Shown piece by piece: positions 8,309 through 53,400 of a stretch of DNA of 64,000 nt (position 1 is the stretch's first letter; every line of letters begins with the position of its first letter). The DNA lies in the NCBI GenBank assembly GCA_049324415.1, contig JBMOOS010000020.1, positions 4,717-68,716 of the forward strand, written 5' to 3'. The stretch is from Pseudomonadota bacterium. GTDB lineage: Bacteria > Pseudomonadota > Alphaproteobacteria > Sphingomonadales > CAKZYD01. The notes beneath the pieces were generated by a model, which was not told where the DNA came from, did no database searches, and saw only the letters and a list, made by a program, of their open reading frames with translations. Both the position numbers and the translations under genes were made by a program.

Positions 8309-8428
8309 CTGGTGGTCCGCCCCAAACGGATAAATCCATCCGTTTGGGAAAAGTGGAGTACTTAGTTATTGAATCTGTGGTGCGATTCCAACAGATGGAA
8401 CCATCTGTTGGAGAAATCGCACCACTAG
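8309..8428 (-). repeat. Family A palindromic element, reversed and partly rearranged copy (120 bp)
   Basis: Reverse complement of the 122 bp element; one terminal CTAG is CTGG; the arm-1 bulge is on the opposite side. Confidence 0.9.
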
Positions 8429-8870
8429 GGTAGAATACGCCATCCGCGAGCGGTTCCCGCAAAGCGGCCTTGACCGTGGGTTGGAGGAATGCTTGGGGAA
8501 GCGCGGCGCGGGCTGTGGCAAGCATGAAGGCCTTCAAAAAAGGCCTTGCCATGGCGGTCTTGTCATGAAGAACGGAGGAGGTGCATGGAGAGTCCACCGG
8601 ACCAGATATTCGGGCCCTGCGCTTTCGCGGGGCCGCGGCTTGCCTGACTGTACAGGCTGACCTTCGGGGTGGCCTGCCGTTCGGCCGACAGGCGAGAGCC
8701 GTTCGACAAAAATGGATGTCAAGTGATTGATAGACCGGCCGGCTGCACAGGCCATGCAGTCGGAGGAGGTCTCGATGTGGATTTGCTTTTTCAAGCAATC
8801 GGGCATGACCCCTGATGGACAAGTCCTGAGCGGATAACGTCCCCTATAGCGGGCATGGCCCCATGATGAA

Positions 8871-8909
8871 GAGCCCCGGACCCTTGAATGGGCCGGGGCT
8901 CGTTGCTTT
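8871..8909. terminator. GC-rich hairpin, likely terminator between the intergenic region and greA
   Basis: GAGCCCCGG...CCGGGGCTC followed by GTTGCTTT. Confidence 0.55.
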
Positions 8910-8977
8910 GGAACGCATCGCCTTATGGTGAAAGCCTATGCCACTTTCCCGGCGCGCCATTCTCACTCGGGCGCAGG

Positions 8978-9457
8978 TCAACGGAACTCGATCTTCTTGA
9001 CCTCGTAATAGCGGTCGCCAGAGGGAGTCATGACCTCGACCTCGTCGCCCTTGCGGCGGCCGATGAGGGCGCGGCCGATGGGCGAGGTATAGGAAATCTT
9101 GCCGTTCTTGACATCGGCCTCATCGGCGCCGACGATTTGGTATTTGAGCTTTTTGTCGTCCTCGTCGAGCAAGGTCACGGTGGCGCCGAACACCACCTTG
9201 TCGCCGCCAAGGCTCGAAGGGTCGATGATCTCGGCGCGGCTGACCTTGTCCTCGAGCTCGGTGATGCGCGCCTCGATCATGCCCTGGCGCTCCTTGGCCG
9301 CGTGATATTCGGCGTTTTCCGAGAGATCGCCATGGGCGCGCGCCTCCTCGATGGCGTGCACCACTTCGGCGCGATCGACGTTCTTGAGCTTTTTCAGCTC
9401 GGCCTCCAAGGCCCGGAAACCTTCGATCAGCATGGGAATGCGGTCGTGATTGGCCAT
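8978..9457 (-). CDS. greA: Transcription elongation factor GreA
   Basis: [39 protein letters not shown] before ATG 9457. Confidence 0.97.
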
Positions 9458-9600
9458 GGCGTTGTGTTCCTCAAGGAGTCCGAACAGCAAAATTCCCCAC
9501 CCGGTGCATGGGGAACTTGGCCACCTGCACCCGGCTTCGCTCCACTCTGGGGGGAGAGCTTTCAAACAAGATGAAAAAATATGGCTTGCAGGTGCAAACT

Positions 9601-12600
9601 TCAAGATGATTTTTCTATCGCGGCGCGCTGCGTGCGCGCCCCGCCATAGGCCTGCAAGGGGGCAACGCCGAGCTCGCCCTTGCGCAAGGCGCGGATCGCC
9701 TCCACCGCGGCGAGCGAGCCGGCGACCGTCGTGTAATAGGGGATTTTGTGGATGAGCGCGGTGTGGCGGATGGAATAGCTGTCGCTGATCGACTGGCCGC
9801 CCTCGGTGGTGTTGAAAAGAAGGGCGATTTCGCCGTTGAGCATGGCGTCCACCACATGGGGCCTGCCTTGCAGCACCTTGTTGATGCGCGCGACTTCAAG
9901 GCCCTGGGATTGCAGATAATGCGCCGTGCCGTCGGTGGCGACGATGGTAAAGCCCATGCCGATCAGGGCCTTGGCTGGCGCCGCCATGGCCGGCTTGTCG
10001 GCGTCTTTTACCGAAATGAAGACGCACCCGGTCTTGGGAAGATGGGTCGCGGCGGCGATCTGGCTTTTGGCGAAGGCCTGCTCGAAGTCGCTGTCCAGGC
10101 CCATGACTTCGCCGGTCGAGCGCATCTCCGGGCCTAAAATCACGTCGACCCCGGGAAAGCGGGCGAAGGGAAAGACCGCTTCCTTGACCGCGGTATGGGC
10201 CGGCATGGCGCTGGGCAGGGCAAAGTCCCGCAGCCGCTCGCCGGCCATGACGCGGGCGGCGAGCTTGGCGAAGGGGACGCCCACCGCCTTGGCGACGAAA
10301 GGCACGGTGCGGGAGGCGCGGGGGTTGACTTCGAGAAGATACACCTCGCCGTCCTTGACCGCATATTGCACGTTCATCAGGCCGACCACGTGAAGCGCCT
10401 TCGCCAAGGCCTTGGTTTGCTGAATGATTTCCTCGATGACCGCGCGGGGAAGGTTGTGCGGGGGCAGGGCGCAGGCGCTGTCGCCGGAATGAATGCCGGC
10501 TTCCTCGATATGTTCGAGAATGCCGGCGATATGCACGTCCCTGCCATCGCCGAGGGCATCGACATCGACTTCGACGGCGTTGCGCAGATAAGCATCGATC
10601 AGCACCGGGTTGCGCCCCGAGACCTTGACGGCTTCATCGATGTAGCGGGCAAGCTGGGCCGAGGAATCGACGATCTCCATCGCCCGCCCGCCCAGCACAT
10701 AGGAAGGCCGGATGAGCACCGGATAGCCGATCGCCTCGGCCACCATCCGCGCTTCCTCGCCCGACTTGGCGATGCCGTTGCGCGGCTGGCGCAGGCCAAG
10801 CTGGCTGAGGAGCTTTTGAAAGCGCTCGCGGTCCTCGGCGAGGTCTATGGCGTCGGGCGAGGTGCCAAGGATGGGAATGCCGGCCGCTTCCAGGACGCCG
10901 GCGAGCTTCAACGGGGTCTGGCCGCCGAACTGGACGATGACGCCCTTCAGGCGGCCGGCGCCTTGCTCGACGCGCAGCAGCTCCAGCACATCCTCGCCCG
11001 TCAAGGGCTCGAAATACAGCCGGTCGGAGGTGTCATAGTCGGTGGAGACCGTTTCCGGGTTGCAATTGACCATGATGGTCTCGAACCCGGCCTCGCTCAA
11101 GGCGAAGCAGGCGTGGCAGCAGCAATAGTCGAACTCGATGCCTTGCCCGATGCGGTTGGGGCCGCCGCCGAGGATGACGATTTTTTCCCGGTCGCTGGGG
11201 CGGGCCTCGCATTCCACCATGCCGCCGGCGCCGGCTTCGTAAGTGGAATACATATAAGGGGTGCGCGCCTCGAACTCGGCGGCGCAGGTGTCGATGCGCT
11301 TGTAAACCGGGTGCAGCCGAAGCGCGGCGCGCAGCCTTGCGACCTCGGCCTCCGTGCATCCGGCAAGGGCGGCGAGGCGGGCATCGGAAAAGCCCTTGGC
11401 CTTGAGGCGGCGCAAGGCCTCGCGGTCTTGCGGCAGACCCTCTTCCTTGACCCTTCGCTCTTCCGCAATCAAGTCGGCGATCTGGCGGATGAACCAGGGG
11501 TCGTAGCGGGTGACCGCGCATATCTCCTCGACCGACAACCCCTCGCGCAAGGCCTGGGCGGCTTTAAGAAGACGGTCGGGGGTCGGCTTGGCGAGCGCGG
11601 CGATGATGCTTTCCGGGTCGGCCTCGCCATCCTGGGCGAAGGCGACCTCATCAAGGCCATCGAGCCCGGTTTCCATGGAGCGCAGCGCCTTTTGCAGGCT
11701 TTCCTGGAACGAGCGGCCGATGGCCATCGTCTCGCCCACCGACTTCATCGAGGTGGTGAGGAGCGGCGCCGCGCCGGCGAATTTCTCGAAGGTGAAGCGC
11801 GGCATCTTGGTCACCACATAGTCGATGGTCGGCTCGAACGAGGCCGGCGTCACCCCGGTGATGTCGTTGGTGATTTCATCGAGGGTATAGCCGACAGCGA
11901 GCTTGGCGGCGACCTTGGCGATGGGAAAGCCCGTCGCCTTGGAAGCGAGGGCCGAGGAGCGCGATACCCGGGGGTTCATTTCGATGACGACGAGGCGGCC
12001 GTCTTCCGGGTTGACCGCGAACTGGACATTGGAGCCGCCGGTCTCGACCCCGATCTTGCGCAGCACCGCGATCGAGGCGTTGCGCATCGCTTGATATTCC
12101 TTGTCGGTCAAGGTGAGCGCCGGGGCAACGGTGATGGAATCGCCGGTATGGATGCCCATGGGGTCGATATTTTCGATGGAGCAGACGATGATGCAGTTGT
12201 CCGCCTTGTCGCGGACCACCTCCATCTCATACTCCTTCCACCCCAAGACCGATTCCTCGATCAGCACTTCGTTGGTGGGGGAGGCATCGAGCCCGCCCTC
12301 GACGATGGCGATGAATTCGCCCCGGGTGTAGGCAATGCCGCCGCCGGTGCCGGCAAGGGTGTAAGAGGGGCGGATGATCGCCGGCAGGCCGATATCCTCG
12401 AGCGCTTTTAGCGCCTCCTCAAGGGAATGGGCGATGTGGCTTTTCGGCGATAGAAGGCCGATTTCCGCCATCGCCTCGCGAAACAGCTCGCGGTCCTCGG
12501 CTTTGTCGATGGCCTCTTTCTTGGCGCCGATGAGCTCGACCCCAAATTCATCCAGCACCCCCGTCTTGGCAAGGCTCAAGGCGGTGTTGAGGGCGGTCTG

Positions 12601-52445: not shown

Positions 52446-53015
52446 TCAACGCTCGATCCGGCTGATTTTGGAGCCTTCCAGGGACAAGTTATACATCAGG
52501 CCCTTGTTGTTGAATATGAAGCCCAAAATCGGCGCGTTCATCGCCGTGCTGTCGATGCTGCCGCCGGCGCCGACGCTGATCAGCGCGACGGAGCCGTCGA
52601 CGCCCACTTCCCAGCCATCGCTGTTGCGGAATTTATCGAGCGCGCCCGGGTCCATGAACAACAGCATCTGGGTGCGGGCTTGAGCCCCCAGTTGCAAGCC
52701 GATGGAGGCGGCGAAGGTGGAATAATAGGCCGCCGGCTTGCCGCCGATCAAAAGGGCGCCCTCGCCATATTCGCCGCCGATGCCGATCCCGGCTTTCTTC
52801 ACGCTGGGAAAGACGAGGACGCCGGAAGCACGGCCCAGCAAATCGTTGCCGCCGGTGATCTTGGCGGCGAACAAGTCCAGCGCCTCGGCGACCCGCCGGT
52901 CGATCTTTTCCCTGGAAGCCGCGGCGGCATCGCCGGTAACGCTCAGCAGCGCGATATGAAGGGCGAGAAAGGCGGACAACAGCCTCATGGCGCCGACGAT
53001 GGTCCGTCGCATCAT
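52446..53015 (-). CDS. YSC84/SYLF-like exported protein
   Basis: Signal peptide; LVFPSVKKAGIGIGGEYGEG, SIGLQLGAQ, GLMYNLSLEGSKI. Confidence 0.85.
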   Translation of the reverse strand: MMRRTIVGAMRLLSAFLALHIALLSVTGDAAAASREKIDRRVAEALDLFAAKITGGNDLLGRASGVLVFPSVKKAGIGIGGEYGEGALLIGGKPAAYYSTFAASIGLQLGAQARTQMLLFMDPGALDKFRNSDGWEVGVDGSVALISVGAGGSIDSTAMNAPILGFIFNNKGLMYNLSLEGSKISRIER

Positions 53016-53093
53016 GGCTTTCCTGCTTAAGCTCACCAAGGTCAGGGGATCGTAGCACAAGAGCAGGGCTCGGCAAGCCACTGTCGGGCCAAT

Positions 53094-53167
53094 TGGAGGC
53101 GCGGACCGGAATCGAACCGGTGTGCAAGGATTTGCAGTCCTCTGCGTAGCCACTCCGCCACCGCGCC
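53094..53167 (-). tRNA. tRNA-Cys (GCA)
   Basis: GGCGCGG...GAGGA-CTGCAAA-TCCTT...CCGCGCCTCCA. Confidence 0.97.
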
Positions 53168-53176
53168 TTAAAGCCA

Positions 53177-53282
53177 CTAGAGCAAAATGCGTTTTATCAG
53201 AATCGCCGTTTTGCTCCAGGTCTTTGTTCTTATCGCATTTTCTACAACCAGCCGGGATCCGTTTGGTTGGAAAATGCTCTAG
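53177..53282 (+). repeat. Family B CTAG-bounded two-arm element (106 bp; RIME/Bru-RS-like)
   Basis: CTAGAGCAAAA..TTTTGCTCCAG linker GCATTTTC..GAAAATGCTCTAG; terminal inverted repeat CTAGAGCA. Confidence 0.85.
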
Positions 53283-53400
53283 TGGTGCGATTCCAACGGA
53301 TGGTTCCCATCTGTTGGAGAAATCGCACCACAGGTTCACTAACTTACGTGGTCCACTTTTCCCAAACGGATGGATTTATCCGTTTGGGGCGGACCACTAG
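53279..53400 (+). repeat. Family A palindromic element (122 bp), sharing its left CTAG with family B
   Basis: 2 linker substitutions relative to the consensus. Confidence 0.95.

What the first reader, a model, noticed from the sequence alone, without database searches (positions are those of the whole stretch)
8309..53400. Young 122 bp CTAG-bounded double-hairpin mobile element (family A), five copies in 64 kb
Seen: copies at 8309, 13031, 38522, 52051 and 53279. The four forward copies are exactly 122 bp and at most 2 nt from consensus. Layout: CTAG, arm 1 hairpin, an AT-rich linker (AGATTCA(C/A)TAACTTAA, with a GANTC and a near match to the IHF consensus WATCAANNNNTTR), arm 2 hairpin, CTAG. 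Terminal inverted repeats are 10/11 identical. All three stem substitutions in the forward copies are A/G changes opposite T, so pairing on that strand is kept. Orientation does not follow local transcription, and no transposase is in the window. Known: the architecture recalls Caulobacter CIR, rhizobial RIME and Brucella Bru-RS repeats. Inference: a recently active non-autonomous element targeting CTAG, mobilised in trans, and possibly a new sequence family.
Basis: partly seen in the sequence, partly recalled or inferred. Interest (0 to 1): 0.75.

Follow-up and report, generated by a model that had tools for sequence, protein, structure and literature searches.

The report
IS630-derived CTAG-targeting miniature transposon family
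The five 122-bp repeats are copies of a small non-coding hitch-hiker transposon, present about 127 times in this genome, that was built from the ends of an IS630-type insertion sequence and lands in the rare sequence CTAG; it is a real but ordinary kind of selfish DNA.

Summary
In the whole 2.86-Mb genome the family has 91 full-length copies (121-122 bp) and 36 partial ones.

It is a MITE derived from an IS630-family (IS870-like) insertion sequence.
- Its left 38 nt match the coding right end of the genome's own IS630 remnant and of intact relatives. The score beats all 2000 shuffles.
- Those IS copies are themselves CTAG-bounded.
- Two copies sit in the single internal CTAG of other repeat families, so paralogous empty sites exist.
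- One copy is a 39-codon in-frame insert in malate synthase that two orthologues lack.

- Stem changes show no strand preference (44 G:T against 39 A:C cells).
- No copy has an exact IHF consensus (0 of 91).
- Orientation shows no bias.
- Copies differ from the consensus by a mean of 4.7 nt, so the family is not especially young.
- The assembly holds no intact transposase.

This sequence family was not found in 400 genomes of the same order. The kind of element is known, and this scan had already reported it in this genome and in other Alphaproteobacteria. It is a new member of a known kind, of low to moderate interest.

The parts
8309..8430 (-). Family A copy in reverse orientation. The outer end at 8309 is decayed to CTGG, and the 3-nt bulge of hairpin 1 is on the opposite arm. 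It lies downstream of an Lrp/AsnC regulator gene (7737-8255).
13031..13152 (+). Family A copy, 122 bp, CTAG..CTAG. Its right CTAG (13149-13152) holds the stop codon (CTA on the + strand) of the amino-acid permease gene 13149-14588 (-). It lies upstream of carB (9604-12912, -).
38522..38643 (+). Family A copy, 122 bp, downstream of hupB (38095-38370). It shares its right CTAG with the next element.
38640..38684 (.). 45-bp CTAG-bounded palindrome of another repeat family (B: CTAGAGCC..GGCTCTAG). It abuts the family A copy and shares one CTAG with it.
52051..52172 (+). Family A copy, 122 bp. The TAG of its left CTAG (52052-52054) is the stop codon of the exopolyphosphatase gene ppx (50534-52054).
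53177..53282 (+). Two-module CTAG-bounded element of repeat family C (CTAGAGCAAAATG...GGAAAATGCTCTAG). Its last CTAG is also the first CTAG of the next family A copy.
53279..53400 (+). Family A copy, 122 bp, between a tRNA gene (53097-53167, -) and a PCMT methyltransferase gene (53475-54239).

Best explanation

Shown here:
- It is non-coding, 121-122 bp, and sharply bounded by CTAG.
- It is present about 127 times in the genome.
- It sits where paralogous or orthologous sequences have a single CTAG or no insert.
- One end is homologous to the right end of IS630 relatives, which are themselves CTAG-bounded.

Inferred: an IS630-type DDE transposase supplied in trans binds the terminal ~25-40 bp, cuts the element out, and pastes it into the TA of a CTAG, duplicating the TA. 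This is what is published for IS630 and ISY100. CTAG is rare and often includes a TAG stop codon preceded by C, so many copies land harmlessly on gene ends and regenerate the stop. The commonest form adds 117 nt (39 codons) and can survive in frame inside genes.

Each hairpin arm is a terminal repeat plus its own inverted copy. The hairpins are therefore inherited anatomy, not a structure under selection.

The burst is probably over in this genome. The only IS630 gene piece carries an in-frame stop and is cut by a contig end.
For: (1) Copy number and boundaries: 91 full and 36 partial loci. CTAG columns are 82-91/91 conserved and the flanks are random.

(2) Insertion with target duplication, seen at paralogous sites.
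- The copy at C4:11550-11671 lies in the internal CTAG of a family B element. 9 uninterrupted B copies show ...CAAGACTT-CTAG-AGCCACG... or close variants there; in one of the 9 the tetranucleotide has decayed to CTAT.
- The copy at C21:268520-268641 lies in the internal CTAG of a family D element. At least 8 uninterrupted D copies have one CTAG there.

(3) Orthologous empty site: malate synthase (C5:67928-69748) carries a 39-aa in-frame insert that is the copy at C5:69239-69359. It falls between the TIM-barrel and C-terminal Pfam domains and is absent from the orthologues of G012 and G009.

(4) Parentage.
- The first 37-38 nt of the left end align with the reverse complement of the right end of three IS copies: the genome's own remnant at C11 (29 of 38 columns identical), G019 (28 of 37) and G264.
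- Smith-Waterman scores of 25-29 exceed all 2000 shuffles (p <= 0.0005, CTAG held fixed).
- Ends of two other IS630 subclades (G365, G159) give nothing beyond CTAG.
- Read on the other strand, that element end spells L-L-E-S-H-H-stop. The relatives' transposases end ...LESIH-stop (83 of 120 listed end FQTLESIH) and one (P0103) ends ...ALESHH.

(5) The IS clade targets CTAG.
- In 15 of 20 loci the transposase ORF runs into CTAG, so the stop codon TAG is made with the target.
- Three copies of one IS in G365 have different flanks, each CTAG..CTAG.
- IS630 prefers TA in CTAG (Tenzen & Ohtsubo 1991, seen only as a reference title in PMC2170065).
- IS870 needs CTAG for its stop codon (passage in PMC13630536).
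- The TA duplication and cut-and-paste mechanism are shown for ISY100 (passages).

(6) Behaviour fits double-strand cut-and-paste.
- No orientation bias against GC skew (Fisher p = 0.28) or against gene direction (18 same, 21 opposite).
- G:T (44) and A:C (39) stem variants are about equal, and only about 7 cells are doubly compensated.

(7) 23 of 91 copies have a neighbouring gene's stop codon in their terminal CTAG (crude gene caller). Two of these are in the window, at Pfam-supported genes.
Against: - No intact IS630 transposase is in the assembly. The only piece (C11:3-428) covers model positions 191-298, has an in-frame TAG, and is cut by the contig start.
- Identity between the element end and that remnant's end is only about 76-79%, so the true mobiliser was not found.
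- The right end (hairpin 2) matches IS left ends weakly at best: G264 p = 0.016, and G019 nothing beyond CTAGTGG.
- TA and CTAG as the duplicated unit cannot be told apart from these data.
- Metagenome contigs of related strains were too fragmentary to show population-level empty sites.
- None of the 22 metagenome loci with the identical 19-nt end has a transposase match within the up to 1.4 kb held on each side.
Confidence: 0.85

Rival explanations
1. The element is a MITE moved by an IS5-family transposase, which would make a 4-bp CTAG duplication.
For: A degenerate IS5-family transposase remnant (NF033580, 96.5 bits) lies at C39:~108074-108493, and a hairpin-2 unit of family A starts about 200 bp downstream. 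A second IS5-type end at C11:8461 is also CTAG-bounded. The CTAG..CTAG boundary fits a 4-bp duplication as well as it fits TA.
Against: The IS5-type ends read CTAG|GGTCCGGAC... (C11) and ...GGTCCGGAAC|TTAG (C39). These do not resemble the family A ends, and the hairpin-2 unit at C39 simply abuts the IS end at that TTAG. The significant end similarity is to IS630 relatives. The closest intact IS5-type relative (G004, L018) shows no matching inverted ends.
Confidence: 0.06
2. The element is a REP/REPIN-like hairpin spread as single-stranded DNA by a RAYT or IS200/IS605-type HUH enzyme.
For: Each arm is a long hairpin (DNA fold -43.7 / -45.2 kcal/mol for the two strands). Solo hairpin units exist.
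Against: The genome, 98.98% complete, has no Y1_Tnp (PF01797) match, while the same search rings in 6 of 14 control genomes. There is no strand or orientation bias. Target duplication of CTAG is seen at paralogous sites. One end is homologous to an IS630 end.
Confidence: 0.02
3. The repeats are kept and spread mainly because they serve the host, as a structured RNA, a terminator, an IHF-bound nucleoid site or a CcrM methylation module.
For: GANTC sites are about 19-fold denser in the element than in the genome (2 per copy in 66 of 91; 0.88 per kb genome-wide), and a full-length CcrM orthologue is present. The interior is well conserved.
Against: - No Rfam family matches the copies.
- No terminator-like or promoter-like site coincides with the three copies scanned.
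- Orientation is independent of neighbouring genes.
- Stems decay without compensation.
- 0 of 91 copies have an exact IHF consensus.
- Copies occur equally in divergent (20), tandem (39) and convergent (19) spacers.
Confidence: 0.05

Closest known systems
IS630 family insertion sequences, especially IS870-like elements of Alphaproteobacteria (IS630 of Shigella sonnei; IS870 of Agrobacterium vitis; ISY100 of Synechocystis)
   Same: Both insert in CTAG. In the relatives the transposase stop codon TAG is completed by the target. Family A's left end is homologous to the right end of these IS copies.
   Different: Family A has no transposase gene and is about 121 bp instead of about 1.15 kb. Each of its ends is folded back into a hairpin.
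RUP (repeat unit of pneumococcus), the 107-bp MITE attributed to IS630-Spn1
   Same: A small, high-copy, non-coding element whose terminal repeats resemble those of an IS630-family IS and which is thought to be moved in trans (passages in PMC3049150; table in PMC3184786).
   Different: Unrelated sequence and host phylum. Family A has two self-complementary arms and strict CTAG ends.
CIR, Caulobacter CcrM-associated intergenic repeats (Chen & Shapiro 2003)
   Same: About 110 bp, found in Alphaproteobacteria, intergenic, associated with CcrM sites (review passages). Family A carries 2 GANTC sites per copy.
   Different: Sequence relatedness could not be tested because the primary paper is not held. 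CIR is reported as strictly intergenic, whereas family A also occurs in frame inside genes.
RPE, Rickettsia palindromic elements
   Same: Palindromic repeats that can sit in frame inside protein genes (review passages). Family A adds 39 codons to malate synthase.
   Different: Different sequence and host. Family A has a clear IS parent and a CTAG target.
Correia elements (NEMIS) of Neisseria
   Same: MITEs of about 104-157 bp (table in PMC3184786). That they have terminal inverted repeats and a TA duplication is recalled, not read in any call.
   Different: No sequence comparison was made here. The IHF site known for Correia elements (recalled) has no exact counterpart in family A.

Membership tests
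MITE (miniature inverted-repeat transposable element) | Small (under about 300 bp), no coding capacity of its own, many copies | tested here: met
   121-122 bp; 91 full and 36 partial loci
MITE (miniature inverted-repeat transposable element) | Terminal inverted repeats | tested here: met
   CTAGTGGTGCG / CTAGTGGTCCG are 10/11 identical and conserved in 85-91 of 91 copies
MITE (miniature inverted-repeat transposable element) | Target-site duplication shown by empty sites | tested here: met
   Two copies lie in the single internal CTAG of families B and D, with 9 and at least 8 uninterrupted paralogues. The malate synthase orthologues lack the insert.
MITE (miniature inverted-repeat transposable element) | Ends resemble those of an autonomous IS | tested here: met
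   The left end against the right ends of IS630 relatives scores above all 2000 shuffles
IS630/Tc1-mariner-mobilised element | Insertion at TA (here within CTAG) with TA duplication | tested here: inconclusive
   CTAG is present at both ends and once at empty sites. TA and CTAG as the duplicated unit cannot be separated.
IS630/Tc1-mariner-mobilised element | A cognate, intact IS630-family transposase in the same genome | tested here: not met
   Only C11:3-428 matches: the C-terminal part, with an in-frame TAG, cut by the contig start. The assembly has 42 contigs, so an unassembled copy is possible.
REP / REPIN with RAYT | A RAYT (Y1 HUH transposase) gene in the genome | tested here: not met
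   PF01797 gives 0 matches in G000 and rings in 6 of 14 control genomes
REP / REPIN with RAYT | Strand-biased distribution expected of single-strand transposition | tested here: not met
   Orientation against GC skew gives p = 0.28
IS5-derived MITE | Ends like those of the IS5-family elements in the genome | tested here: not met
   The IS5-type ends read CTAG|GGTCCGGAC, unlike family A
CIR (Caulobacter CcrM-associated intergenic repeats) | Conserved CcrM (GANTC) sites within an inverted-repeat element of about 110 bp | tested here: met
   2 GANTC sites in 66 of 91 copies; CcrM orthologue E = 1.4e-163 to 6pbd
CIR (Caulobacter CcrM-associated intergenic repeats) | Sequence similarity to CIR1-4 | not testable with these tools
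   The primary paper and its sequences are not held.
Known structured RNA (Rfam) | A match to a curated covariance model | tested here: not met
   Only 5 tRNAs reach gathering score in the window

The most novel reading that the evidence does not exclude
The GANTC inside the terminal repeat may be a CcrM switch. It lies at nt 11-15 from the C of CTAG in family A's left end, in family D, and, by my reading, in the right ends of nearly all IS630/IS870-like relatives across diverged subclades. If so, the transposase would bind or cut only hemimethylated ends just after the replication fork passes. Transposition of this whole alphaproteobacterial IS630 clade and its MITEs would then be gated by the cell cycle, as Dam gates IS10. 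The four transposase-binding half-sites of the double hairpin would act as an enhancer, or as a sink, for the enzyme.
Probability: 0.1. Interest if true: 0.55.

Novelty: new member of a known kind. Interest (0 to 1): 0.27.

Why it matters
The finding explains about 0.5% of this genome and several assembly breaks. It accounts for 201 of the 1145 CTAG sites. It also explains why many genes here end in C-TAG followed by a hairpin.

It links a lineage-restricted repeat to its parent IS family, which an earlier follow-up on this genome had left open. It adds one clean case of a 39-codon in-frame insert in a conserved enzyme.

It does not change what is known about MITEs. The kind of element is textbook, and this scan has met it repeatedly in Alphaproteobacteria.

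Tried and rejected
- **Population-level empty sites.** One search of public runs found 10 holders, 1 of them the probable source. Contigs of X2-X5 laid on window 36000-55900 were short (about 200-1000 bp) and of low depth. The tables shown had no joint that skips an element; 187 joints were not shown. This gives no verdict on polymorphism.
- **IS5 remnant at C39 as parent.** I considered this first because a hairpin-2 unit lies just downstream. I rejected it after reading the IS5-type ends.
- **The C17:46-303 match to the IS630 model (38 bits).** Read through, it looks like the N-terminus of a different (IS481-like) transposase. That name is recalled, not tested.
- **The C23 match (17 bits) and locus L011 (Colwellia).** Not inspected.
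- **Searches of relatives.** 0 of 40 relatives. Among 400 other genomes of the order, 1 has a marginal 24-nt match, with at most 2 candidates scored per genome.
- **The genome contigs pattern scan.** It gave 3 loci. Two are related elements in uncultured alphaproteobacterial MAGs.
- **The metagenome scan for the 19-nt end.** It gave 22 loci holding other MITE families of about 85-110 nt with the same end. None had a transposase match within the up to 1.4 kb held on each side.
- **Terminator and promoter scan of 37800-53800.** Nothing falls on the three copies.
- **Papers not held.** Chen & Shapiro 2003 (PMC166474) and Tenzen & Ohtsubo 1991 (PMC208372). Their content is cited only through other papers' passages or reference lists.

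
Full report
**Observation**

The four forward copies (13031, 38522, 52051, 53279) are each 122 bp, begin and end with CTAG, and differ from their own consensus by 0-2 nt. The reverse copy (8309-8430) is more diverged. One end has decayed to CTGG, and the 3-nt bulge of hairpin 1 sits on the opposite arm, a state seen in only this one of 91 full copies.

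The window lies in a 2.86-Mb, 42-contig, 64% G+C assembly. blastn of one copy against it gives 127 non-overlapping loci: 91 full length and 36 partial.

The partial loci include:
- solo hairpin-1 units (about 53 bp) and solo hairpin-2 units (about 58 bp), each CTAG-bounded;
- copies that lack most of hairpin 1;
- chimeras with other repeats;
- copies cut by contig ends or N runs.

Several contigs start or end inside the element, so it breaks the assembly.

In the 91-copy alignment the element is 121 nt in the majority form. The CTAG columns are 82-91/91 conserved. Outside CTAG the commonest base in any column reaches at most 44/91.

**Surroundings**

The window is housekeeping DNA: carB, greA, glnA, tig-clpP-clpX-lon-hupB, ndk, purN/purM, ppk-ppx, valS. 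No transposase family was found among 47 ORFs scanned.

Two window copies sit on stop codons. The TAG of the left CTAG at 52052-52054 ends ppx. The right CTAG at 13149-13152 holds the stop of an amino-acid permease gene on the minus strand.

Genome-wide, a crude GC3-based gene caller gives these placements for the 91 full copies:

| Placement | Copies |
|---|---|
| Between genes, divergent | 20 |
| Between genes, tandem | 39 |
| Between genes, convergent | 19 |
| Inside long ORFs | 9 |
| At contig edges | 4 |

By the same caller, 23 copies have a neighbouring gene's stop codon in their CTAG.

**A CTAG-centred repeat system**

CTAG is rare here. There are 1145 sites, 0.12 of the zero-order expectation and 0.5 of the Markov expectation. 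Of these, 201 lie at family A loci.

Other repeat families are also CTAG-bounded palindromes:
- B: CTAGAGCACGTTCA...
- C: CTAGAGCAAAATG...
- D: CTAGTGTCCCGAATCG...
- an 18-nt CTAGGGTCCGGACCCTAG

These abut each other and family A, sharing one CTAG at the junction. In the window this is seen at 38640-38684 (B) and 53177-53282 (C). In all, 15 of 91 family A copies abut another such repeat.

**Evidence of insertion**

- The copy at C4:11550-11671 lies exactly in the internal CTAG of a family B element. Nine other B copies are uninterrupted there; eight keep a single CTAG and one has CTAT.
- The copy at C21:268520-268641 lies in the internal CTAG of a family D element. At least 8 other D copies are uninterrupted with one CTAG.
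- The copy at C5:69239-69359 lies inside the malate synthase gene, between the TIM-barrel domain (ending at residue 438) and the C-terminal domain (starting at 485). Aligned with the orthologues of G012 and G009 (57% and 53% identity), it is a clean 39-residue insert that both lack.

The majority 121-nt form adds 117 nt, which is 39 codons.

Four tandem dimers share one CTAG, and the two units of each dimer share private mutations. They therefore arose locally.

**Which transposase**

No Y1/HUH transposase is present, while the same search rings in 6 of 14 control genomes.

An IS5-family remnant at C39, with a stop and a frameshift, has a hairpin-2 unit just downstream. However, IS5-type ends in this genome read CTAG|GGTCCGGAC. 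The hairpin unit merely abuts the IS end.

The better parent is IS630.
- C11:3-428 encodes the C-terminal part of an IS630-family transposase (NF033545, 100.3 bits). It has an in-frame TAG and is cut by the contig start. It ends ...GATTCGATCCA|CTAG.
- An intact relative in G019 (71% identity, 370 aa) is bounded CTAG|TGGATTGATCGG ... GGAATCAATCCA|CTAG.
- Among 20 loci with relatives from a 400-genome sample of the order, 15 show the ORF running into CTAG, so the target supplies the stop codon. Three copies of one IS in G365 have different flanks, each CTAG..CTAG.

Family A's left end aligns with the reverse complement of the right ends of three IS copies: G000-C11 (29 of 38 columns identical), G019 (28 of 37) and G264. 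The local scores of 25-29 exceed all 2000 shuffles with CTAG held fixed. Two other IS630 subclades give nothing. Family A's right end matches the G264 left end only weakly (p = 0.016).

Read on the other strand, the left end spells L-L-E-S-H-H-stop. Of 120 listed homologues of the G019 transposase, 83 end FQTLESIH and one (P0103) ends ALESHH. Family D's end closely resembles the left end of another IS630 relative (L056).

From papers:
- ISY100 shows TA duplication and cut-and-paste transposition by the transposase alone (passages, PMC2170065).
- The IS630 preference for TA in CTAG is known to me only from the reference title in that paper.
- IS870 needs a CTAG target to make its stop codon (passage in PMC13630536).

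- Strand-specific pairing. Across 44 stem pairs and 91 copies, 159 cells are G:T. Of these, 77 are one consensus G:T pair and 38 are one common A/G polymorphism. That leaves 44 G:T against 39 A:C cells, in 21 against 22 pairs. Only about 7 cells are doubly compensated, and 59 cells are other mismatches. The two strands fold equally well (-43.7 and -45.2 kcal/mol as DNA). There is thus no sign that one strand's structure is kept.
- Orientation. It is independent of local GC skew (Fisher p = 0.28) and of gene direction (18 same, 21 opposite).
- IHF. No copy has an exact IHF consensus on either strand, and the sixth consensus position is A in 48 copies and C in 41.
- GANTC. Sites are real and dense: 2 per copy in 66 of 91 copies, against 0.88 per kb in the genome. 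A CcrM orthologue is present (E = 1.4e-163 to 6pbd).
- Age. Copies differ from the consensus by a median of 4 and a mean of 4.7 nt. Mean pairwise distance is 0.060, and 3 of 4095 pairs are identical. The common polymorphisms occur in all combinations. This is not a very recent burst.
- Decayed ends. 18 of 91 copies have a mutated CTAG at one or both ends, almost always in the central T or A.

**Distribution**

Family A DNA was not found in 40 relatives. Among 400 other genomes of the order, one has a marginal 24-nt match.

A pattern scan of named species genomes found a diverged two-hairpin copy in an uncultured Hyphomicrobiaceae MAG and a perfect 52-nt solo palindrome in an uncultured alphaproteobacterial MAG.

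The exact 19-nt left end occurs in 22 metagenome loci. Most belong to other CTAG-bounded elements of about 85-110 nt with different interiors, and none has a transposase match in the flanks held. The terminal repeat is therefore shared more widely than this family.

**Verdict**

This is a lineage-specific, apparently unnamed family of IS630-derived MITEs, a new member of a known kind.

Earlier notes of this scan had already described the same family elsewhere in this genome (e1-2435238, e1-2435239). They had also described IS630-derived double-hairpin CTAG elements in other Alphaproteobacteria (e1-3061233, e1-1256648, e1-774920, e1-2260878). I reached the IS630 link from the sequences before reading those notes.

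The new points for this genome are the end homology to its own IS630 remnant, the two paralogous empty sites and the orthologue-checked malate synthase insert.

Still open: whether an intact mobiliser exists, whether TA or CTAG is duplicated, and whether family A is related in sequence to CIR, RIME or Bru-RS.

Noticed in passing
window 38640-38684 and 53177-53282; genome-wide, e.g. G000:C21:83052, C8:6847, C5:137328: At least four further CTAG-bounded palindromic repeat families (B, C, D and an 18-nt CTAGGGTCCGGACCCTAG) share junction CTAGs with each other and with family A. Family D's end closely resembles the left end of an IS630 relative in G303 (L056).
   Followed up: partly
G000:C5:67928-69748 (L059), element at C5:69239-69359: Malate synthase carries a 39-residue in-frame insert made of a family A copy, between its TIM-barrel and C-terminal domains. 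It is absent from two orthologues. Eight other copies lie inside long ORFs, including a TonB-dependent receptor, an HTTM-domain protein, an AFG1-like ATPase and a PBP-like protein. Some of these may be ORF-calling artefacts.
   Followed up: partly
G000:C30:7-244, 126958-127195, 139749-139988, 241134-241371: Four tandem dimers of family A share one central CTAG. The two units of each dimer carry the same private mutations, which points to local duplication or re-insertion next to the donor.
   Followed up: partly
L038, L039, L041, L043-L048, L050, L034 right ends; window 13041-13045 and equivalents: By my reading of the printed ends, a GANTC (GAATC or GATTC) sits at nt 11-15 from the C of CTAG. 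This holds in the right ends of nearly all IS630-clade relatives across diverged subclades, and in the ends of families A and D. The left ends have GAATT or GAACT instead.
   Followed up: partly
G000:C39:107975-108748 (L014 1372-2145) and G000:C11:8461-8587: There is a degenerate IS5-family transposase remnant (stop and frameshift, 5' truncated) and a second IS5-type end at a contig edge. Both have CTAG- or TTAG-bounded ends reading GGTCCGGA(C). This IS type probably also targets CTAG.
   Followed up: partly
18 of the 91 full copies, e.g. window 8309-8312: Decayed terminal CTAGs are almost always changed in the central T or A (CTGG, CCAG, CGAG, CTCG). Only one copy has a changed outer base. 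Such changes would immobilise a copy under the TA model.
   Followed up: no
G000:C30:219999-220052; G000:C42:127151-127234: Chimeric units occur: a hairpin with a hairpin-2 left arm and a hairpin-1 right arm, and a family B module fused to the right two thirds of family A. These suggest recombination between repeat families.
   Followed up: no
window 22080-22139: An AT-rich overlapping palindrome (CTTAAATTTAAG core) lies just downstream of the gyrB/parE-like gene (22431-24443, minus strand). It is unrelated to family A.
   Followed up: no
G000:C17:1-340 (L030): The N-terminal part of another transposase runs off the contig start. By my reading it is IS481-like, a name that is recalled and not tested. 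It is another sign that IS copies are under-assembled in this genome.
   Followed up: no
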